Part shown: positions 6,664-53,126 of the stretch, piece by piece
How the letters are laid out: each line of letters opens with the position of its first letter
Numbering within the stretch: the stretch's first letter is position 1
NCBI GenBank assembly: GCA_964016885.1
Contig: OZ024740.1
Location: 216,628,001 to 216,692,000, forward strand
Length of the DNA stretch: 64,000 nucleotides
Reading direction: 5' to 3'
Origin: Eledone cirrhosa
Taxonomy: Eukaryota
Program-made: the position numbers and the translations under genes
The notes under the pieces: model-generated
Databases searched by the model: none
What the model was told of the DNA's origin: nothing
What the model saw: only the letters and a program-made list of their open reading frames with translations

Positions 6664-7088
6664 AGTTCTATATTGTCAGGGCTACAGTCTATATAGAGGT
6701 CCAGTTCTATATTGTCAGAGCTACAGTCTATATAGAGGTCCAGTTCTATATTGTCAGGGCTACAGTCAATATAGAGGTCCAGTTCTATATTGTCAGGGCT
6801 ACAGTCTATATAGAGGTCCAGTTCTATATTGTCAGGGCTACAGTCTATATAGAGGTACAGTTCTATATTGTCAGGGCTACAGTCAATATAGAGGTCCAGT
6901 TCTATATTGTCAGGGCTACAGTCTATATAGAGGTCCAGTTCTATATTGTCAGGGCTACAGTCTATATAGAGGTCCAGTTCTATATTGTCATGGCTACAGT
7001 CTATGTAGAGGTCCAGTTCTATATTGTCAAGGCTAATAGTCTATATAGAGGTACAGTTCTATATTGTCAGGGCTACAATCTATATAGA
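6664..7088. repeat. 39-bp minisatellite, about 11 copies
   Basis: Unit TTCTATATTGTCAGGGCTACAGTCTATATAGAGGTCCAG repeated head to tail with few substitutions. Confidence 0.97.
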
Positions 7089-29319: not shown

Positions 29320-29873
<554 letters not shown>

Positions 29874-29878
29874 GTATA

Positions 29879-29909
<31 letters not shown>

Positions 29910-29990
29910 TATACATATATATACATATATATATATATATGTATATATATATATGTGTATATATATATATATATATATACATATATATAC

Positions 29991-30078
<88 letters not shown>

Positions 30079-30095
30079 TATATACATATATATAC

Positions 30096-30177
<82 letters not shown>

Positions 30178-30178
30178 C

Positions 30179-30256
<78 letters not shown>

Positions 30257-30257
30257 G

Positions 30258-30322
<65 letters not shown>

Positions 30323-30992
30323 GTATATACATATATATATATGTATATATATATATACATATATATATATGTATATATATATATACATATATATATATGT
30401 ATATATATATATACATATATATATATGTATATATATATACATATATATATATGTATATATATATATACATATATATATATGTATATATATATATACATAT
30501 ATATATATGTATATATATATACATATATATACATATATATATATATATACACATTATATATATAATATAATATAACTTAGAGTTTACACTCAATGGGGTC
30601 ATTTACAATTATTTTAGCTCTAAGAATCACTTCTGAGCAGTATAAATTAATATATGATAAACATTTACATGTTTTTGTTGTAATTGACAATAAAATAGCT
30701 AGAATGAAATATCTTAATTCAAATACATATAGTCTGCCTGTGTCGATCTAAAAAATAATAAATCACAAACACATATGGGCAAAAGGCCTTGGTACCTAGA
30801 CACGTTTAAATTTCAAAATACAAACTTTTACCCGCAGATCAGTCCGAACTTCAAAATTTAAACATATTTCACAAAGGATGGTATAATAGTGAAATAATTA
30901 ATTAATTAGTAGTGAGTTAATTAATTTTCTAAAACATGTAAATGTTTATCATATATTAATATATATATATATATACATATATATACATATAC

Positions 30993-31150
<158 letters not shown>

Positions 31151-31257
31151 GTATGTATATATATATGTATGTATATATATATGTATGTATATATATATAT
31201 ATGTATGTATATATATATATGTATGTATATATGTATGTATATATATATGTATACATA

Positions 31258-31292
<35 letters not shown>

Positions 31293-31303
31293 GTATATAT
31301 ATG

Positions 31304-31337
<34 letters not shown>

Positions 31338-31729
31338 CGTATATGTATATATATGTATATATATATATATATAAAAGTAGCGAAACAAACGGTTATTAAA
31401 CAATTGTATTATAAACAACTTGAATATTTCTACAAGTACATTGTACCTGTTGAGGTATCCATCCACTTCTATATATATATATATGTATATATATATACGT
31501 ATATGTATATATATGTATATATATGTATATATATGTATGTATATATATATGTATATATATGTATATATATGTATATATATGTATATATATGTATGTATAT
31601 ATATATGTATATATATGTATATATATGTATGTATATATATATATGTATATATATGTATATATATGTATGTATATATATGTATATATATATGTATATATAT
31701 GTATGTATATATATATATGTATATATATG

Positions 31730-31767
<38 letters not shown>

Positions 31768-31775
31768 TGTATATA

Positions 31776-31851
<76 letters not shown>

Positions 31852-31907
31852 CATATATATACATATATATATATATATACATATATATACGTATATATAT
31901 ATACACA

Positions 31908-31980
<73 letters not shown>

Positions 31981-32049
31981 GTATATATATATATGTATAT
32001 ATATATATGTATATATATGTATATATATGTATGTATATATATATGTATG

Positions 32050-32120
<71 letters not shown>

Positions 32121-32367
32121 CATCATCATCATCATCATCAACGTTTAACGTCCGTGTTCCACGCTTGCATGGGTTTGGACGGGGGTAGTCCCACTTGAGG
32201 CAAGAGTGATTGTCTTGCTCGCATAGGACTGTCTGGCAGGTTTTCTACAGTTGGATGCCCTTCCTAACACCAACCACATTTACAGTGTGGGTCTGGGAGG
32301 TTTTTACCGTGTTGCCTACACGGCCACATTACAGCGTGGACTGTGTGTTTTTTTGTCGTGACCCCTA
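32121..32367 (-). mobile_element. RTE 3' UTR fragment
   Basis: Matches 10175-10389; near-identical inverted copy of 34141-34388. Confidence 0.9.
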
Positions 32368-32370
32368 ATA

Positions 32371-32406
<36 letters not shown>

Positions 32407-32503
32407 CATATATACATATACATATATACATATATATATATATACATATATATACATATATACATATACATATATACATATATATATATATACATATATA
32501 TAC

Positions 32504-32637
<134 letters not shown>

Positions 32638-32639
32638 GT

Positions 32640-33169
32640 AGATAAATCTACCAAAAGTTTACGGTAGTGTCCAATCCGTATGAAGAACTCAATGTAATCC
32701 GGATATCATGAAAAGAGAAGATGCATTCAAAAACTACTTTCGGTGAAAAATAAACGGAAAACAGAGTCAAGATAAATTATTAAAAAAATAATGAATAAAC
32801 AAAGAAACAGTTCCTTATATAAAAAAAAATTCATTATTTTACGATCGTTTCTCGGATATATATGTGTTAGAATTGGTATGCATATTCTATAGATCTATGT
32901 ACAATATTTATACAAACTATCAGAGGGAATATACATACCTTCACATATATATGCTGTCTTCAGAAATAATGATTATTTCTGAAGCCAGCATATATATGTG
33001 AAGGTATGTATATTCCCTCTGATAGTTTGTATAAATATTGTACATAGATCTATAGAATATGCATACCAATTCTAACACATATATATCCGAGAAACGATCG
33101 TAAAATAATGAATTTTTTTTTATATAAGGAACTGTTTCTTTGTTTATTCATTATTTTTTAATAATTTAT
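32640..33169. mobile_element. Penelope-like element remnant forming a 398-bp near-perfect palindrome (32772-33169)
   Basis: Arms of about 199 bp around the single base G32971, differing by very few positions; the left arm continues to 32640; both ends abut (TA)n. Confidence 0.8.
32833..32970 (-). ncRNA. type I hammerhead ribozyme candidate with about 105-nt stem II
   Basis: Minus strand ATTATTT-CTGAAGA-[long hairpin]-GAAA-CGATCG-TA-AAATAAT; 7-bp stem I, palindromic stem III, GUA triplet. The base of stem II is mismatched. The mirror copy at 32972-33109 has CTGAAGC. Confidence 0.6.
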
Positions 33170-33170
33170 A

Positions 33171-33310
<140 letters not shown>

Positions 33311-33311
33311 C

Positions 33312-33396
<85 letters not shown>

Positions 33397-33509
33397 CACA
33401 TATATATATATATATACATATATATACATATATATATATATATATATGACCCTCCCAAAGTATAACAATATATATATATATATATACATATACACATATA
33501 TATATATAT

Positions 33510-33548
<39 letters not shown>

Positions 33549-33587
33549 TATATATATATACACATATATATATATATATATATACAC

Positions 33588-33618
<31 letters not shown>

Positions 33619-33683
33619 TATATATATATATATACACATATATATATATATATATACACATATATATATATATATATATACAC

Positions 33684-33714
<31 letters not shown>

Positions 33715-33723
33715 TATATATAT

Positions 33724-33764
<41 letters not shown>

Positions 33765-33797
33765 TATATATATATACACATATATATATATATATAT

Positions 33798-33849
<52 letters not shown>

Positions 33850-33956
33850 GTATATATATGTATATATATATGTATATATATGTATATATATGTATATATA
33901 TATATGTACATATATATGTATATATATATATGTATATATATATGTATATATATATG

Positions 33957-34008
<52 letters not shown>

Positions 34009-34037
34009 TACATATATATATACATATATATATATAC

Positions 34038-34127
<90 letters not shown>

Positions 34128-34131
<4 letters not shown>

Positions 34132-37487: not shown

Positions 37488-40400
37488 ACATCTAATGTAA
37501 TACACACATATCTAATGTAATACACACACACATCTAATGTAATAAACACATATCTAATGTAATACACACACACATCTAATGTAATAAACACATATCTAAT
37601 GTAATACACACACACATCTAATGTAATAAACACATATCTAATGTAATACACACACACATCTAATGTAATAAACACATATCTAATGTAATACACACATCTA
37701 ATGTAATAAACACATATCTAATGTAATACACACACACATCTAATGTAATACACACACATCTAATGTAATACACACACACATCTAATGTAATAAACACATA
37801 TCTAATGTAATACACACACACATCTAATGTAATAAACACATATCTAATGTAATACACACACACATCTAATGTAATAAACACATATCTAATGTAATACACA
37901 CACACATCTAATGTAATACACACACATCTAATGTAATACACACACACATCTAATGTAATAAACACATATCTAATGTAATACACACACACATCTAATGTAA
38001 TAAACACATATCTAATGTAATACACACACACATCTAATGTAATAAACACATATCTAATGTAATACACACACACATCTAATGTAATACACACACATCTAAT
38101 GTAATAAACACATATCTAATGTAATACACACACATCTAATGTAATACACACACATCTAATGTAATACACACACATCTAATGTAATACACACACATCTAAT
38201 GTAATACACACACACACATATCTAATGTAATACACACACACATCTAATGTAATAAACACATATCTAATGTAATACACACACATCTAATGAAATACACACA
38301 CACACACATATCTAATGTAATACACACACACATCTAATGTAATATACACATATCTAATGTAATACACACACACATCTAATGTAATAAACACACATCTAAT
38401 GTAATACACACACATCTAATGTAATATACACACACACATCTAATGTAATACACACACACATATCTAATGTAATACATACACACATCTAATGTAATACACA
38501 CACATCTAATGTAATACACACACATCTAATGTAATACACATATATCTAATGTAATACACACACATCTCATGTAATATACACACATCTAATGTAATACACA
38601 CACATCTAATGTAATACATACATATGTAATGTAATAAACACAGATATCTAATGTAATACACACATCTAATGTAATATACACACACATCTAATGTAATACA
38701 CACATATCTAATGTAATACACACATCTAATGTAATACACACATATCTAATGTAATACACACATATCTAATGTAATACACACACATCTAATGTAATACACA
38801 CACATCTAATGTAATACACACACATCTAATGTAATACACACATATCTAATGTAATACACACATATCTAATGTAATACACATATATCTAATGTAATACACA
38901 CACATCTAATGTAATTACACATATCTAATGTAATACACACACCTAATGTAATACACACACATCTAATGTAATACACACAGATCTAATGTAATACACACAT
39001 ATCTAATGTAATACATACACATCTAATGTAATACACACATATCTAATGTAATATACACATATCTAATGTAATACACACACATCTAATATAATATACACAC
39101 ATCTAATGTAATACACACACATATCTAATGTAATACACACACATCTAATATAATATACACATATCTAATGTAATACACACACATCTAATGTAATACACAC
39201 ATATCTAATGTAATACACACTCATCTAATGTAATATACACACACACATCTAATGTAATACACACACACCTAATGTAATATACACACACCTAATGTAATAT
39301 ACACACATCTAATGTAATATACACATATCTAATGTAATACACACACATCTAATGTAATACACACATATCTAATGTAATACACACATATCTAATGTAATAC
39401 ACACATATCTAATGTAATATACACATATGTAATGTAATACACACACATCTAATGTAATACACACATATCTAATGTAATATACACACATATCTAATGTAAT
39501 ATACACACATCTAATGTAATATACACATATCTAATGTAATACACACAAATCTAATGTAATACACACATATCTAATGTAATACACACACATCTAATATAAT
39601 ACACACACATCTAATGTAATACACACACATATCTAATGTAATACACACACATCTAATGTAATACACACACATCTAATGTAATACACACACATCTAATGTA
39701 ATACACACACACACATCTAATGTAATACACACACACCTAATGTAATACACACACATCTAATGTAATACACACACACATCTAATGTAATACACACACACCT
39801 AATGTAATATACACACATCTAATGTAATACACATACATCTAATGTAATACACACATATCTAATGTAATTCACACACATCTAATGTAATACACACATATCT
39901 AATGTAATATACACATCTAATGTAATACACACACATCTAATGTAATACACACACACCTAATGTAATACACACACATCTAATGTAATACACACACATCTAA
40001 TGTAATACACACACACATCTAATGTAATACACACACACCTAATGTAATACACACACATCTAATGTAATACACACACACATCTAATGTAATACACACACAC
40101 CTAATGTAATACACACACACCTAATGTAATACACACACATCTAATGTAATACACATACATCTAATGTAATACACACATATCTAATGTAATTCACACACAT
40201 CTAATGTAATACACACATATCTAATGTAATATACACATATGTAATGTAATACACACACATCTAATGTAATACACACACATCTAATGTAATACACACACAC
40301 CTAATGTAATACACACATATCTAATGTAATACATACACATCTAATGTAATACACATATCTAATGTAATACACACACACATCTAATGTAATACACACACAT

Positions 40401-40714
40401 CTAATGTAATACACACACACATCTACTGTAATACACACACACATCTAATGTAATACACACACATCTAATGTAATACACACATATCTAATGTAATACACAC
40501 ACATCCAATGTAATACACACACACATCTACTGTAATACACACACACATCTAATGTAATACACACACACACCTAATGTAATACACACACATCTAATGTAAT
40601 ACACACACATCTAATGTAATACACACACACACACATATCTAATGTAATACACACACACACCTAATGTAATACACACACATCTAATGTAATACACACACAT
40701 ATCTAATGTAATAC
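37488..40714. repeat. 3.2-kb satellite of about 18-26-bp units: ATCTAATGTAAT + (AC)n
   Basis: Roughly 155 units; constant 12-bp core with a variable dinucleotide spacer; 42-bp dimer periodicity at the left end. Confidence 0.97.
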
Positions 40715-40808: not shown

Positions 40809-40995
40809 CGGTGAATTGACAGTATCGGTAGAGGGTTGGACGCCATGCTTTCTGGCATAGTTACGTCCCTTTACAGTCTGAGTTCAAATCCCGCCGAGGT
40901 TAACTTTGCCTTTCATCCTTACGGGGTCGATAAAATAAAGTACCAGTAATGCACTGGGTAATTGCCTGCCTTGTGCCTAAAGTAGAAACAATTAT
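40809..40995 (+). mobile_element. Nin-core tRNA SINE, full length
   Basis: Near-identical to 661-848. Confidence 0.88.
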
Positions 40996-42062: not shown

Positions 42063-42367
42063 TCAGTTATCTACAATATGTTGTCATTACTATGTCAAAG
42101 GTCACCTGACACCTAATCAACATCTAACTTTTACAACTTCTCAACTATTCTAACTTTCACCCCCCCCCCTATACGCCACTAATTCTTACTGCTTTCTTTT
42201 CTCTCTTTCTATTTCTCTCTCTTCGCCCACTCTCTCCTTGGCCTTTTATCTCTCTTTATCTCTATCTCGTCTCTCTATGTTTGACTGTTTGTCTCACTTG
42301 ATCTCTCTCTATTTGTTTACCTCTCTCCCTGTTTCTGCCTCTCTGCCTATCTAACTATCTATCTCTC

Positions 42368-44040
42368 GGGATTGCGGAAAGCGGTGTCGGCCTACGCCGA
42401 TGACGTGACAGTAATGGTGTCGACGGCCTCTGAAATCGAGGCGGTCGGCACCTTACTGGAGGAGTACGAAAGGTTCACAGGGGCTAAGCTGAACCGGGAC
42501 AAGTCGATCGGTTTGCAACTCGGCACGTGGAGGGGCAGACCGATGCCCTCCGATGGCGTCGTCGGACGCTGGACGGAGGGCCCGGTGAAGTTGCTCGGGG
42601 TCTGGTTCGGACCGGACCTCCAGGTGGAGAAAAACTGGGCGGAGGTTACGAACAGGGTGTTTGCACTGACCCAAAAGTGGGCCAGTTGCAAACTATCCCT
42701 GAAAGGTTGGGCGGAGGTGGCGAACACCTACATAGCGTCCGTCATCTACTACCGCCTGACCGTAGTGCCCTGCCCAAGGGAAACCCTCACCAAGATGGAG
42801 CGCGCACTCTTCCAATTCCTTTGGAAGAGGCGGGCTCCTATGGTGAGGAGATCCATCTGCTGTCAACACACTTCGAAAGGAGGGCTGGGGATGCCGTGGC
42901 TAATGATGCGTAAACACGCATTAAGGCTACGGAACCTCTACGTATTCCTCACCGGTCAACCGGTGTGGGCCTCGTTTGTGAGACGAACCTTTCCCAGACT
43001 CGTCTCACTCACCGAGCTGCAATCCTGGGTCAAGCAAAGACCGAGAAAACTGGGCGCCTGGCACACTAAGTGTGCCCAGGCGCTCACCGCCCTCTGGCAG
43101 GCGGATCCGGTTATCAGTGGAGACTCCACCGCAACATTCTATAGAGGGCTGGTACGCAGCAGGTGCGACGACGCCCTTGGAGAAGCCCTAGACATGGAGG
43201 AGGACGAACTGGCCAGCCTGTTCGGTAGGACATTCAGCCCGGGACCTATGGACAACTTCCAGAAGTCCCTGGCTTGGCAGTGCTACCGAGGGGCTTTACC
43301 CGTTCGAGAAAGGCTCTACAGACACGGGTGCCCGGGTAGGGACCCCACCAAAAAGATCTGTCCCAGATGCGTGTGCGACGAGGAAACCGTTGCACACGCA
43401 TTGGTACACTGCTCGGGCGTAGCCGATCTGTGGGGCTATGTCGAACAACTGCTGTCAAGGGTGGGACCGATCCGGTTGACCACCGAGTCTATTGTAATGA
43501 TCAAGCCGCCTCCCCCCTTCAAAGATGAAGCAGAGGCGGTGTTTCTGTGCGTAATAGCCATGGCGAAAGAGGTTGTATGGTGGACGCGTCTGAAAGGACT
43601 GAGGTCAGGCACCTTTCTCTCTGGCCAACAACTGGTCCGTTTCTTCCGATATCATTTCGGAAGAAGGATCAGGATGGAGAGAGAGGTGCTCCACCCCAGT
43701 CGTTTTTATGAAAGGTGGGTGAAAGTGGCGAGAATGGCCCGTGTGAATGGGCCTTCTCTTTACATAAGCCTGTAGGTGGAAAAGAGGAAGGAACGAGGGA
43801 GCACCCCCTCTCTGTGCTCCTGAGGAAAAGGGTTGCACACTTTTTTCGGGGGTGTGTGCGACCCCCCAAGGCGCCTCCTCTCTATTGAGGATTTTGTTAT
43901 AAATTTTATTTTTTGTTATATTTTATTTTATTTTTATATTTTGTTATTGCCTCCTCCTTATTGAGGACGCCTTTTTGTGTAAACTCCCCCCCTTTGTACT
44001 TGTCCCACTTTTGATGCCCTGGTGGCAAATAAAAGAAACA
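42368..44040 (+). mobile_element. young 5'-truncated Tx1/L1-clade LINE
   Basis: TSD TATCTATCTCTC at 42356-42367 and 44041-44052; GC/CpG-rich body; 3' UTR ending AATAAAAGAAACA. Confidence 0.93.
42372..43775 (+). CDS. Tx1/L1 ORF2 C-terminal half (RT YADD, thumb, CCHC zf-RVT), truncated but uninterrupted
   Basis: SAYADDVTV, GAKLNRDKS, KLLGVWF, LSLKG, LFQFLW, KGGLGMP, CPRC...ETVAHALVHC; no real start codon. Confidence 0.88.
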   Translation: MRKAVSAYADDVTVMVSTASEIEAVGTLLEEYERFTGAKLNRDKSIGLQLGTWRGRPMPSDGVVGRWTEGPVKLLGVWFGPDLQVEKNWAEVTNRVFALTQKWASCKLSLKGWAEVANTYIASVIYYRLTVVPCPRETLTKMERALFQFLWKRRAPMVRRSICCQHTSKGGLGMPWLMMRKHALRLRNLYVFLTGQPVWASFVRRTFPRLVSLTELQSWVKQRPRKLGAWHTKCAQALTALWQADPVISGDSTATFYRGLVRSRCDDALGEALDMEEDELASLFGRTFSPGPMDNFQKSLAWQCYRGALPVRERLYRHGCPGRDPTKKICPRCVCDEETVAHALVHCSGVADLWGYVEQLLSRVGPIRLTTESIVMIKPPPPFKDEAEAVFLCVIAMAKEVVWWTRLKGLRSGTFLSGQQLVRFFRYHFGRRIRMEREVLHPSRFYERWVKVARMARVNGPSLYISL

Positions 44041-44052
44041 TATCTATCTCTC

Positions 44053-44385
44053 TAGGTTGAGGAAAAAGAGGAAGAGAGGAAAGGGGTACAAACTCTTCGT
44101 ACTAGGTTGAGGAAGAGGAAGAAGAGAGGAAAGGGGTACAAACACTTCGTACTAGGTTGAGGAAGAAGAGAAGACAGGAGTACAAACTCTTTGTACTCCT
44201 GGAGATGAGGGTTGCACATTTTTTCTGGGGGTATGTGTTACCCATATGAAATGTCTCCCTCTATTGGGGAAAATCGATTAATTTTTAAATTGCATTTGTG
44301 ATATTTTACACGTTTTTATTGTATGTAAACTTCCCCCTTTGTATTTGTCCCCTTCTGTTGTGCCTCTCTGGCTAATAAAGAAACA
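44053..44385 (+). mobile_element. older Tx1-related 3' UTR fragment at the same target
   Basis: Similar to 43773-44040 (TAGGT..., AGGGTTGCACA.TTTTT, TGTAAACT.CCCC.TTTGTA.TTGTCCC, AATAAAGAAACA); bounded by TATCTATCTCTC at 44041-44052 and 44386-44397. Confidence 0.85.
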
Positions 44386-45051
44386 TATCTATCTCTCAAG
44401 ATATCTCTCACCTCTGCCTACCTCTCTATCTCTGTCAGTCTGTCTATATCTCTCTCAGACTGTCTCTATCCCTGTCTACGTCTCTGCTGTCTGCCGCTCT
44501 CTCTCGCTCTCTGTCTCTCTCTCTCTTTCTCACCTCTGTCTATCTATCACTGTTTCTCCCTATCTGCCTCTCTCTTTCTCTGCCTACCTCTCACTTTATT
44601 TGCCTGTTCTTCCATCTCTCTATCTGTCTATCTTCCTTTCTCCCTCTGCCATTGCTTTCTTTTCCACACATACAACAACCCTTCCTTGTGTCTATGAAAA
44701 CCACATGTAATACTTGGGCCAACATAAAACTGTGATAGGATTGCCCAAGGTTTATCATACAGTGGGATTATTGAACATGAAACTTAATAGAACACTCCAC
44801 AGAGAGAGAGAGAGAGAGAGAGGGTGGAGAAAGGTAGAGGGGCAGAGGAGGTAATTTATTAATATAGTTGGATAAAGTAGTCAAAGAATAATTTATATTG
44901 TAGATTTGTTTATCTTCTTGGACAAGTAAAAACACTTTATTCTATTATTATTATCTAAACTACTCTGAAATTTTCTATAAAAGGGTCCTCAAAATGAGAC
45001 TATGTGGTCTTTAACTTGCTAGAAATAGCAACCTATTCTCCATCAACCTGT

Positions 45052-45754
45052 GGCAGATAGATAGATGGAAGAACATGCATAGAAAGTGAGAGGTAGGCAG
45101 AGAAAGAGAGAGGTAGATAGAGAGAAACAGTGATAGATAGACAGAGGTGAGAGAGAGAGACAGAGAGATAGATAGACAGACAGAGAGCGACAGAGAACGG
45201 CAGACAGCAAGATAGAGAGGTAGACAGAGAACGGCAGACAGCAAGATAGAGAGGTAGACAGCAAGATAGAGACAGGTTGACAGAGAGAGAGAGAGAGGGA
45301 GAGAGATAGACAGACTGAGAGAGATAGAGAGGTGAGAGATATCTTGAGAGATAGATATGTTTCTTTATTAGCCAGGCACAAAAGAAGGGGACAAATACAA
45401 AGGGGGAAGTTTACATACAATAAAAACGTGTAAAATATCACAAATGCAATTTAAAAATTAATCGATTTTCCCCAATAGGGGGAGACATTTCATATGGGTA
45501 ACACATACCCCCAGAAAAAATGTGCAACCCTCATCTCCAGGAGTACGAAGAGTTTGTACCCCTTTCCTCTCTCCTTCCTCTTCCTTAACCTAGTACGAAG
45601 AGTTTGTACCCCTTTCCTCTCTTCCTCTTTTTCCTCAACCTAGAGAGATAGATAGTTAGATAGGCAGAGAGGCAGAAACAATCAGAGAGGTAAACAAATA
45701 GAGAGAGATCAAGTGAGACAAACAGTCAAACATAGAGAGAGGAGATAGAGATAA
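45052..45754 (-). repeat. inverted duplicate of 42256-42367 joined to 44053-44627 (lacks the young LINE)
   Basis: Reverse complement reads ...CTCTGCCTATCTAACTATCTATCTCTC-TAGGTTGAGG..., i.e. the pre-insertion junction. Confidence 0.92.
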
Positions 45755-47099
45755 TTAATAATTGTTTATACTTTTAGGCACAAGGCCAGCAATTATCCAG
45801 TGCATTAGTGGTACTTTATTAATAATGGTGTCATTTGATAGTGTCATTAGAATAGAGTGTAGCAAAAAAACACAATAACAATGAGAAGATACTTGGAACA
45901 CCTTTCATAATAGTTTTTCTCCAATGATGTGATGACTGACCTGTGGTTAAACAACAATTCATGAATGTCAACTATGGATAATGTTGCTCTTCCAACGTGA
46001 CTCCTTCACCATCCTCTGGGGAAACACCTCTATTCTCTCTGCTAGGGCCATGGGGTGGCCAGTACGTGGGTCCCCATTTGCTTATAATAGTGAGAGATGG
46101 GGAGAGTGAGAGAGACAGAGGCAGTGACTATACCAGCATTGCTGAAGTATTTTGTAGATTTAAAGGTTAAGTAATTTTATTAAATACCTTCTTCAACTGT
46201 TAGTCTTATGGTATCTTACTCAGTATAAATGAAATCTCTATATGAACTTGATACTGTCTTGATATTTGAACAAAATACACCAGAGTTTTTTTATTCAATG
46301 CTCTACTGATTGTACAATACTGTACATACTATTGTACATACTGTATATACTTAAATAGAAGCTGAGGAATATGTAACCAAAATATCAATAGTAGAGGGGG
46401 TGGTCAGCAAAAAATATATATTATAGAAACACAGTGATAATCACTAAAGATGTCAAAGGAAAATGTGTGACAAAGGAACTTTCAGAAATTATATTTATAT
46501 TTTTAACTGTTGGTCAATCAATGATAAACATTGATTGCCAGCTAAATTATTTATGGAAATATAAAAAATATATACTGAAACTGAAGTGAAATCTAAACCA
46601 AACAGTGAGTGTGTTTTACTATTTTTGGCAATACTAGGACAACATGACCCTCCCCAAATATAACAATATCTAAAATTTGGAGAGATTTTGTAATATAACT
46701 TTCTCATTAAGATGATATTTGGAACATAACTTAATAAATGTTCTTACATAAAATTATGGATATTTTTTATTAGATAAATATAACCACTTTATATTAAAAC
46801 AACCTAGTATTGCAAAAATAGGGAGCGTTTCAAGTGGTTTGATATCAGAAAGTGTAAATAAATCTTAACTATAATAAAGAAAGGAGTGTGGGACTGCGTC
46901 CAGAATATATATTTTTTTATCCCGTTTATAAAATAAGTTGGATTACTTTGAATAAATAATGAATGAATATTACATAATTTATGTACTAAATTTCATAACT
47001 CATGATTAAATATGAATAATTTTATTGCTTATTTAAAGATTCACTTCTTTAAAATTTTCAAATCTCAACACTTCCAGTCAGCGTCAATTATATTACTAG

Positions 47100-47223
47100 A
47101 CCTTTACAGTTCAAATCCCGTCGAGGTTAACTTTGCCTTTCATCCTTACGTGGTCGATAAAATAAAAGTACCAGTAATGTACTGGGTAATTGCTGGCCTT
47201 GTGCCAAAAAGTAGAAACAATTA
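47100..47223 (+). mobile_element. Nin-core SINE, 5'-truncated
   Basis: GTTCAAATCCCG...GCCTTTCATCCTTACG.GGTCGATAAAATAAA...GGCCTTGTGCC. Confidence 0.85.
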
Positions 47224-47227
47224 TATT

Positions 47228-47674
47228 ACTAGACCAGAAAAAATGTGCAAGCTCAAAAGAGCCACAGAATGTTATAATAAACCTTCAAAAGTGTGGGACT
47301 AGAGTTGTTACTCAAAAATATTGTAATCATTATCTATTGTACACTCTGTGGCATCCTTTTATAAAAAAGAGACTCATAACGAACTCAAGACGACATGATA
47401 ATTATTTAAGCTAATGTTCAATATCTCATATTAGATGCTTAGTAATGATTAATACGAAATGCACTTAAACCAAATTCTATATTATAAATTCACTTAAATA
47501 ATTATTGTGTCATCTTGAGTTCGTTATGAGTCTCTTTTTTATAAAAGGATGCCACAGAGTGTAAGATAGATAATGATTACAATATTTTTGAGCAACAACT
47601 CTAGTCCCACACTTTTGAAGGTTCATTATAACATTCTGTGGTTCTTTTGAGCTTGTGCATTTTTCAGGTCTAGT
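47228..47674. mobile_element. fold-back/MITE-like element with about 183-bp inverted arms
   Basis: Arms 47228-47410 and 47493-47674, 82-bp spacer; termini ACTAGACC / GGTCTAGT. Confidence 0.8.
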
Positions 47675-51744: not shown

Positions 51745-51960
51745 AGATTGACAGTAACCAGTAGAGCTTCCGAAATATGCTACAGGGAATATAATTACGT
51801 CCTTTTATGTTCTGAGTTCAAATCCCACTGAAGTTTACTTTGCCTTCATCCTTACAGGGTCGATAAAATAAAGTACTAGTAACATACTGGGGGTCAATTT
51901 AATCAACTTTCTCTTTCTCTTCAAATTGTTGGCCTTGTGCCTGAATCAGAAACCATTATT
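51745..51960 (+). mobile_element. Nin-core SINE, diverged
   Basis: CTGAGTTCAAATCCC...GCCTTCATCCTTACAGGGTCGATAAAATAAAGTAC...GGCCTTGTGCC...GAAACCATTATT. Confidence 0.8.
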
Positions 51961-53126
51961 TTCTAAACACCTGGTAGATTGGTGGAATTGTTAGGGTGTC
52001 AGACAAAACCATTATTTTCTAAACACCTGGTAGATTGGTGGAATTGTTGGGGTGTCAGACAAAACCATTATTTTTTAAACACCTGGTAGATTGGTGGAAT
52101 TGTTAAGGTGTCAGACAAAACCATTATTTTCTAAACACCTGGTAGATTGGTGGAATTGTTGGGGTGTCAGACAAAACCATTATTTTCTAAACACCTGGTA
52201 GATTGGTGGAATTGTTAGGGTGTCAGACAAAACCATTATTTTCTAAACACCTGGTAGATTGGTGGAATTGTTGGGGTGTCAGACAAAACCATTATTTTTT
52301 AAACACCTGGTAGATTGGTGGAATTGTTAAGGTGTCAGACAAAACCATTATTTTCTAAACACCTGGTAGATTGGTGGAATTGTTAGGGTGTCAGACAAAA
52401 CCATTATTTTCTAAACACCTGGTAGATTGGTGGAATTGTTGGGGTGTCAGACAAAACCATTATTTTTTAAACACCTGGTAGATTGGTGGAATTGTTAAGG
52501 TGTCAGACAAAACCATTATTTTCTAAACACCTGGTAGATTGGTGGAATTGTTGGGGTGTCAGACAAAACCATTATTTTCTAAACACCTGGTAGATTGGTG
52601 GAATTGTTAGGGTGTCAGACAAAACCATTATTTTCTAAACACCTGGTAGATTGGTGGAATTGTTGGGGTGTCAGACAAAACCATTATTTTCTAAACACCT
52701 AGTAGATTGGTGGAATTGTTAAGGTGTCAGACAAAACCATTATTTTCTAAACACCTGGTAGATTGGTGGAATTGTTGGGGTGTCAGACAAAACCATTATT
52801 TTCTAAACACCTGGTAGATTGGTGGAATTGTTGGGGTGTCAGACAAAACCATTATTTTCTAAACACCTGGTAGATTGGTGGAATTGTTAGGGTGTCAGAC
52901 AAAACCATTATTTTCTAAACACCTGGTAGATTGGTGGAATTGTTGGGGTGTCAGACAAAACCATTATTTTTTAAACACCTGGTAGATTGGTGGAATTGTT
53001 AGGGTGTCGACAAAACCATTATTTTCTAAACACCTGGTAGATTGGTGGAATTGTTAGGGTGTCAGACAAAACCATTATTTTCTAAACACTTGGTAGATTG
53101 GTGGAATTGTTAGGGTGTCAGACAAA
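51950..53126. repeat. 56-bp tandem array, about 21 copies, derived from a SINE tail-head junction
   Basis: Unit AAACCATTATTTTCTAAACACCTGGTAGATTGGTGGAATTGTTAGGGTGTCAGACA; period 56 (CC at 51953, 52009, 52065). Confidence 0.97.

What the first reader, a model, noticed from the sequence alone, without database searches (positions are those of the whole stretch)
42356..44397. Tx1-clade LINE inserting repeatedly at the same TATCTATCTCTC target
Three copies of TATCTATCTCTC (42356, 44041, 44386) bound two tandem related elements, both ending AATAAA(A)GAAACA without poly(A). An older 3' UTR was followed by a young 1.67-kb copy inserted into its TSD, with the same 12-bp duplication. Established: many Tx1 families are sequence-specific, some for microsatellites. 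Inference: a family targeting the (TATC)n/(TC)n junction, recently active given the uninterrupted CpG-rich ORF.
Basis: partly seen in the sequence, partly recalled or inferred. Interest (0 to 1): 0.7.

Follow-up and report, generated by a model that had tools for sequence, protein, structure and literature searches.

The report
Jumping gene re-using one GATA target
Two related, recently spread jumping genes (LINE retrotransposons) in what is likely an octopus-like genome sit one behind the other at the same short TATC (GATA) site, and a neighbouring mirror-image copy of the region lacks the longer one, likely because their cutting enzyme seeks this repeat; repeat-seeking relatives are known, and I found no paper on this target.

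Summary
Observation confirmed, interpretation corrected. Three TATCTATCTCTC copies bound two related L1/Tx1-group LINE fragments: A (42368-44040, open ORF2 end) and B (44053-44385, 3' UTR only). New here: an inverted duplicate at 45054-45754 holds the same flank and B but lacks A and has one target copy. It is an empty site in the assembly, so the 12-mer is a target-site duplication and A inserted after B. The target is not the TATC/TC junction: 79 of 94 other copies are followed by TATCT, only 2 by the full 12-mer, none by poly(A). The likely nick is C^TATCT. Both families are young; B is earlier in order only. Full-length copies (about 5.8 kb, APE-RT) carry an inherited TATC-TCT(C/T)T leader at their 5' end. 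Tx1 membership is likely but was not tested against named references. The scan found this TATC-targeting family before on other DNA. It extends a known strategy (Kibi, Koshi, crocodilian Tx1) to a target that seven literature searches did not show.

The parts
42356..42367 (+). TATCTATCTCTC, 5' target-site duplication of element A (last C also fits the element, so 11-12 bp)
   Evidence: single copy at the empty paralog
42368..44040 (+). Element A: 5'-truncated young LINE copy, the last 1673 bp of a ~5.8-kb family
   Evidence: 98.7% to the nearest full-length copy
42369..43775 (+). Open C-terminal part of ORF2: RT from just before YADD, thumb, CCHC zinc finger; stop TAG 43773-43775
   Evidence: (zf-RVT E 9e-6 and RVT_1 E 0.003, both under the curated cut-off)
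43776..44040 (+). 3' UTR of A, ending AATAAAAGAAACA (44028-44040) without poly(A)
44041..44052 (+). TATCTATCTCTC, 3' duplication of A and 5' duplication of B
44053..44385 (+). Element B: sister-family LINE truncated at its own ORF2 stop codon, so 3' UTR only; ends AATAAAGAAACA
   Evidence: 1747 first-look candidates, 94-96% for the best 40
44052..44179 (+). 50-bp tandem repeat of B's first bases (2.6 copies here, 2.0 in the inverted twin, one in other family copies)
44386..44397 (+). TATCTATCTCTC, 3' duplication of B
42256..42355 (+). TC/TATC-rich left flank, shared with the inverted duplicate (96 of 100 identical)
   Evidence: its last bases plus the target occur only twice in G000
44398..44626 (+). 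TC/TATC-rich right flank, shared with the inverted duplicate
45054..45754 (-). Inverted duplicate of the locus without A: the empty site. 603 of 628 aligned bases match; 427-bp spacer at 44627-45053
45643..45654 (-). Single TATCTATCTCTC where the plus arm has duplication-A-duplication
45358..45642 (-). Twin of element B in the inverted duplicate; its 3' duplication is at 45346-45357

Best explanation
A and B are separate insertions of two sister LINE families whose copies end at TATCT, likely because the element's own endonuclease nicks TATC/GATA repeats. Shown: B sits between two copies of a 12-mer; the region is duplicated in inverted form; A lies in B's 5' duplication in one arm only and duplicates the same 12 bp. 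Inferred mechanism: the APE endonuclease nicks the GATA strand at 5'-AGATA^G-3' (top strand C^TATCT). Reverse transcription starts there on the RNA's ...AAAGAAACW end, with no poly(A) carried into DNA. The second nick falls about 9-24 nt downstream. Each insertion leaves two intact targets, so later copies stack head to tail. Full-length copies also carry an inherited target-like 5' leader, TATC-TCT(C/T)T, which would help prime the second strand.
For: Empty site: the inverted arm reads flank-TATCTATCTCTC-B where the plus arm reads flank-TATCTATCTCTC-A-TATCTATCTCTC-B; the flank pattern occurs at these two places only. 3' flanks of 94 other copies: T at +1 in 94, TATC 80, TATCT 79, GATA 0, AAAAA 0, against 0.19% of window positions for TATCT. 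The 35 copies picked by their 5' end give 33 TATCT; 12 of 13 in a further older set. Duplications that include non-TATC bases: 10 of 50 truncated copies, against a mean of 1.6 and a maximum of 5 in 500 re-pairings. 17 of 75 copies show such duplications, median 15 nt, with C before them in 14 of 17. An intact ORF2 has APE, RT and zf-RVT, and ORF1 a zinc knuckle; catalytic motifs align with human L1 ORF2p (NARG, CEA, GDWN, LDR, SDH, YADD). 12 of 91 copies have another family 3' end within 70 nt upstream. Leader: TCTCT(C/T)T precedes 35 of 69 full-length and 0 of 26 truncated junctions. The variant ending TTT is found in 0 of 25 copies of the youngest clade and 10 of 14 outside it, and in 7 of 38 versus 20 of 29 loci found with two queries that lacked the leader.
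Against: No biochemistry: sequence cannot separate endonuclease recognition from annealing of a read-through TATC tail on the RNA. 15 of 94 copies do not start with TATCT (TATAT, TACCT, TCTCT and others), so this is a preference. 40 of 50 truncated copies gave no informative duplication, and a few copies lie in unrelated sequence with none (for example L122, L025). Public contigs did not confirm the empty junction: two runs of one sample hold A's 5' junction, but with the three-base variant of the other arm, and no listed record (24 of about 340 shown) bridges the empty junction. Divergence does not order A against the inversion (B twins differ at 3 of 202 sites; A is 1.1% from its nearest copy). 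Samples are the best-scoring 30-40 matches of 1,260-1,750 candidates per search, so they lean to young copies.
Confidence: 0.8

Rival explanations
1. RNA-guided landing: the RNA ends in read-through TATC, and a loosely specific endonuclease nicks widely; only nicks where the RNA tail can pair with GATA are extended.
For: No poly(A) in 94 copies; most source copies are followed by TATC; the 5' leader suggests that target-like sequence travels with the RNA.
Against: Flanks that deviate at +3 or +4 (TACCT, TATAT, TATGT) are kept as they are; T at +1 is invariant; C at -1 in 14 of 17 lies outside what a 3' tail would pair with. At the window site no extra TATC was added. The two mechanisms may act together.
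Confidence: 0.12
2. One reading: the family targets the (TATC)n/(TC)n junction 12-mer.
For: All junctions in the window carry the 12-mer; many full-length 5' junctions read TATCTCTCT.
Against: 2 of 94 3' flanks carry the 12-mer and 0 of 13 more. The TC run at full-length 5' junctions follows element lineage and is absent from 26 truncated junctions.
Confidence: 0.03
3. TATC is only an element-made tail, and copies survive in simple-repeat regions because these are neutral; or the empty arm lost A by exact recombination between the duplications, or is an assembly artefact.
For: TC-rich surroundings; the empty junction is not seen among listed public contigs.
Against: Non-repeat duplications such as TATCTGTAACACTAACT on both sides of L186; fixed strand and phase (GATA 0 of 94); the arms differ by 4% plus indels, unlike a fold-back read; a contig of X1 runs from the spacer into the inverted arm without differences (record 8).
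Confidence: 0.05

Closest known systems
Kibi (TC)n and Koshi (TTC)n of teleosts; crocodilian Tx1 families in (TTCC)n/(TTTC)n (PMC4494074, passages and section 15; PMC3812793, passages; Kojima and Fujiwara 2004 seen only as cited)
   Same: APE-type LINEs that insert into one strand of a pyrimidine-rich microsatellite; endonuclease thought to set the target.
   Different: Target TATC/GATA, with tolerance for TATA, TACC and TCTC variants; host likely an octopod mollusc. Kinship with Kibi/Koshi was not tested.
Waldo (ACAY) and Mino (AC) of insects (PMC3812793, passage)
   Same: APE-type elements that target a short tandem repeat, one of them a tetranucleotide.
   Different: R1 clade by the cited title; different motif and hosts.
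R1A of the Drosophila melanogaster group (PMC2718515, section 18)
   Same: Full-length transcripts carry 6-27 nt of upstream target sequence proposed to anneal and prime the second strand; fixed first nick, flexible second nick; tandem arrays.
   Different: R1 targets 28S rDNA. Here the leader comes on top of a duplication, and the target is a dispersed microsatellite.
Human L1 ORF2p (PDB 8sxt)
   Same: Best solved match (E 3e-47 over residues 8-857), same APE-RT layout and catalytic motifs.
   Different: L1 has a poly(A) tail, a weak TTAAAA preference (PMC3812793) and a Transposase_22 ORF1 (PMC5203782); here no poly(A) and a CCHC ORF1.
L1-Tx1 families of Octopus vulgaris (PMC13282606, passages and Table 1)
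   Same: 13 recently active L1-Tx1 families, 421 insertions, in an octopus.
   Different: The word 'target' does not occur in its main text; its supplement and library were not read, so identity with A or B is untested.

Membership tests
L1/Tx1 group of non-LTR retrotransposons | ORF2 with N-terminal APE endonuclease, RT and C-terminal CCHC finger | tested here: met
   Exo_endo_phos 23-227, RVT_1 512-755, zf-RVT 976-1032 (the last under its cut-off) in the intact ORF2 of L036
L1/Tx1 group of non-LTR retrotransposons | RT closer to L1 than to other solved non-LTR RTs | tested here: met
   L1 ORF2p E 3e-47 against R2 E 4e-18; only L1 and R2 are in that list, so CR1, RTE and Jockey were not compared
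L1/Tx1 group of non-LTR retrotransposons | Marks of target-primed insertion: 5' truncation, fixed 3' end, variable duplications, no LTRs | tested here: met
   empty site
Tx1 clade | RT groups with named Tx1 elements (Tx1L, Keno, Kibi, Koshi) in a tree | tested here: inconclusive
   No named Tx1 or L1 reference was returned. The 28-row tree groups it with an Argonauta protein and unnamed relatives; turtle and teleost proteins are 36-42% identical in RT
Tx1 clade | ORF1 of RRM/zf-CCHC type, not Transposase_22 (PMC5203782, passage) | tested here: met
   zf-CCHC E 0.003 (under cut-off), no Transposase_22 at E 0.1, no RRM detected
Microsatellite-specific Tx1 (Kibi/Koshi type) | More than 20% of flanks in one sequence type (criterion given in PMC4494074 for multicopy targets) | tested here: met
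   TATCT 79 of 94, TATCTATC 58 of 94
Microsatellite-specific Tx1 (Kibi/Koshi type) | Same target, (TC)n or (TTC)n | tested here: not met
   1 of 94 flanks is pure (TC)n (L064)
Microsatellite-specific Tx1 (Kibi/Koshi type) | Endonuclease cuts the target in vitro | not testable with these tools
   needs a nicking assay

The most novel reading that the evidence does not exclude
The element uses the GATA microsatellite three times over: as cut site, as the place where its transcript starts, and as a 5' leader that pairs with the target to finish full-length insertions. Each full-length copy then plants fresh TATC units even at non-repeat sites (L037, L186, L187), so the LINE builds its own future targets and part of the genome's GATA tracts.
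Probability: 0.3. Interest if true: 0.6.

Novelty: new variant of a known kind. Interest (0 to 1): 0.4.

Why it matters
An active, high-copy APE-type LINE with a short, readable target and intact copies makes the poorly understood basis of microsatellite targeting (called not well understood in PMC3812793) directly testable by nicking assays and endonuclease swaps between sister families. It also bears on GATA microsatellite markers in octopods, which may be split by insertions. This window adds a filled and an empty site side by side, which fixes the duplication and the order of insertion. The strategy itself is known, and this scan has met the family many times.

Tried and rejected
Junction-specific target: rejected. 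'B is an old relic': rejected by divergence. Clade placement by named homologues: two protein searches and the atlas gave no Tx1- or L1-named reference; the tree therefore cannot place the clade. Presence/absence polymorphism: contigs and RAD reads of X1-X5, X21, X22 were swamped by other family copies and did not settle it. Expression: no RNA holder listed. An extra G before the 5' leader, as a copied cap would leave: GCTATC in 5 of 69 full-length 5' flanks and 0 of 93 other flanks (p 0.013, pattern chosen after looking), kept as a hint only. The inverted arm as a retrotransposed read-through copy: by eye I saw no duplication around it, origin left open. The Tx1L endonuclease paper PMC85248 is not held. 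Literature searches listed no paper on a TATC/GATA-targeting LINE; Repbase, Dfam and most subscription journals could not be searched, and the supplements of PMC4494074 and PMC13282606 were not read and may bear on novelty.

Full report
Observation. They bound element A (42368-44040) and element B (44053-44385), which end AATAAAAGAAACA and AATAAAGAAACA with no poly(A). A holds an open frame to 43775 that is the last 469 residues of ORF2 (97% to an intact copy), CpG obs/exp 0.82. B starts at its own family's ORF2 stop codon and is 3' UTR only; its first 50 bp are repeated 2.6 times.

The empty site. It carries the same left flank, B at the same place with the same truncation, and the same right flank (603 of 628 aligned bases), but has one TATCTATCTCTC where the plus arm has 12-mer, A, 12-mer. 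The 27-base flank pattern occurs only at these two places in G000. The simplest order is: B inserts and duplicates the 12-mer, the region is duplicated in inverted form, A inserts into B's upstream duplication in one arm and duplicates the same 12 bp (11-12, one base is shared with the element). No extra TATC was added at A's 3' end. Divergence does not fix this order by itself: the B twins differ at 3 of 202 sites and A is 1.1% from its nearest full-length copy. Public contigs gave partial support only. X1 has a contig from the spacer into the inverted arm without differences; X1 and X2 (one sample, possibly the source of the assembly) hold A's 5' junction but with the other arm's three-base variant; none of the 24 listed records of about 340 bridges the empty junction. 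Such contigs show presence, not absence.

The families. G000 has 3.0 Gb. First-look candidates were 1404 for A's 3' end, 1747 for B's and 1263 for the 5' end of full-length A; 40 were scored each time, and these are not copy numbers. Full-length A is about 5.8 kb with two ORFs. ORF2 (1145 aa) has APE, RT and zf-RVT; ORF1 has one CCHC knuckle. 6 of 35 full-length copies keep both frames open, and the closest pair differs by under 0.1%. B is a sister family, 80-85% in ORF2 DNA, and is young too (median 2.5% between copies over 204 bp). The nearest named protein is from Argonauta hians (62% over 59% of ORF2; 66% in RT), so the host is likely an octopod; I did not determine it.

The target. I counted 3' flanks of 94 copies: 31 A copies found by the 3' UTR (33 of the best 40 fetched; the window's own and one duplicate dropped), 35 full-length copies found by the 5' end (38 of 40 fetched; three without a 3' end at 5.3-5.95 kb dropped) and 28 B copies (30 fetched; the window's two dropped). 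No query held flank. T follows in 94, TATC in 80, TATCT in 79, TATCTATC in 58, (TATC)3 in 36, the 12-mer in 2, a TATC-to-TC junction in 3, GATA in 0, AAAAA in 0; TATCT makes up 0.19% of window positions. The 15 misses are mostly TATAT, TACCT, TCTCT, TGTCT. In an older subfamily 12 of 13 give TATCT and none the 12-mer (5 of 20 loci were not parsed there, and by eye 3 of them also give TATCT). The junction reading therefore fails and a TATC preference holds, on one strand and in one phase.

Target or tail. Among 50 truncated copies (the window's A included; seven dropped as duplicate, yardstick or unresolved), 10 have a duplication of 7 nt or more that includes non-TATC bases, against 1.6 on average and 5 at most in 500 re-pairings. 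L186 has TATCTGTAACACTAACT on both sides in unique sequence. So the repeat is target DNA, and the inferred nick is C^TATCT, 5'-AGATA^G-3' on the other strand. Each insertion leaves two targets, which fits stacking: 12 of 91 copies have another family end within 70 nt upstream. That the endonuclease reads the site is inferred from its intact motifs and from the view stated in PMC4494074 and PMC3812793; pairing of a read-through RNA end cannot be excluded by sequence.

A 5' leader. Full-length copies have extra bases between the duplication and ACGATGG. TCTCT(C/T)T precedes 35 of 69 full-length junctions and 0 of 26 truncated ones. The variant follows lineage: TTT ends it in 0 of 25 copies of the youngest clade and 10 of 14 others, and in 7 of 38 versus 20 of 29 loci from two queries that began after it (kin are not independent, which is the point). 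At non-repeat targets (L037, L186, L187) 14-17 TATC-like bases lie beyond the duplication. This explains why TATC/TC junctions are seen at full-length 5' ends. It resembles R1A of the melanogaster group, whose transcripts carry 6-27 nt of upstream target proposed to prime the second strand (PMC2718515, section 18). Transcription from the upstream repeat and annealing are inferred, not shown.

Comparison and novelty. It works like Kibi, Koshi and the crocodilian (TTCC)n/(TTTC)n Tx1 families (PMC4494074, passages and section 15; PMC3812793, passages). Membership of the L1/Tx1 group is met on layout; the CCHC ORF1 fits Tx1 as described in PMC5203782 (passages); a tree with named Tx1 elements could not be built. 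PMC13282606 (passages) lists 13 recently active L1-Tx1 families in Octopus vulgaris without discussing targets; PMC5753468 (passages) adds nothing on this target. Searches showed no TATC/GATA-targeting LINE, but Repbase, Dfam, closed journals and the supplements were not seen. Earlier notes of this scan describe the same TATC-targeting family in this and other genomes; they are unchecked and not independent support.

Verdict. A real, young, TATC-preferring LINE pair; a new target within a known strategy. This window adds a filled and an empty site and the order of insertion. Confidence 0.8, interest 0.4.

Noticed in passing
window 45054-45754 against 42256-44626: Local inverted duplication of about 700 bp with a 427-bp spacer, made of TC-rich DNA plus element B. 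Its mechanism is unexplained. The plus arm has more private changes in B than the minus arm.
   Followed up: partly
window 44052-44179; L055: Short tandem repeats of the first bases of truncated B copies (50 bp here, several 45-bp units in L055), which may come from repeated template jumps at the 5' junction.
   Followed up: no
window 40934-40995, 45758-45820, 47165-47224: Three copies of the 3' end of a short interspersed repeat ending in ATTAT; one abuts the outer end of the inverted arm.
   Followed up: no
window 37488-40714, 51950-53126, 6664-7088, 29702-34128: Long tandem arrays: 20-bp unit x157, 56-bp x21, 39-bp x11 and a 4.4-kb AT-type tract.
   Followed up: no
window 47239-47664: Near-perfect inverted repeat, 186-bp arms at 92% with a 54-bp spacer, possibly a miniature inverted-repeat element.
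   Followed up: no
L194-L198: A further subfamily, 83-87% to A overall but 92-94% in the 3' UTR, with its own 5' end (TCTGGGATGGAC) and also TATC flanks; suggests recombination or 5' turnover.
   Followed up: partly
P0004-P0076: A large group of unnamed relatives at 44-54% in RT from ENA and JGI assemblies forms a sister clade to the octopod-like proteins; hosts and targets unknown.
   Followed up: no
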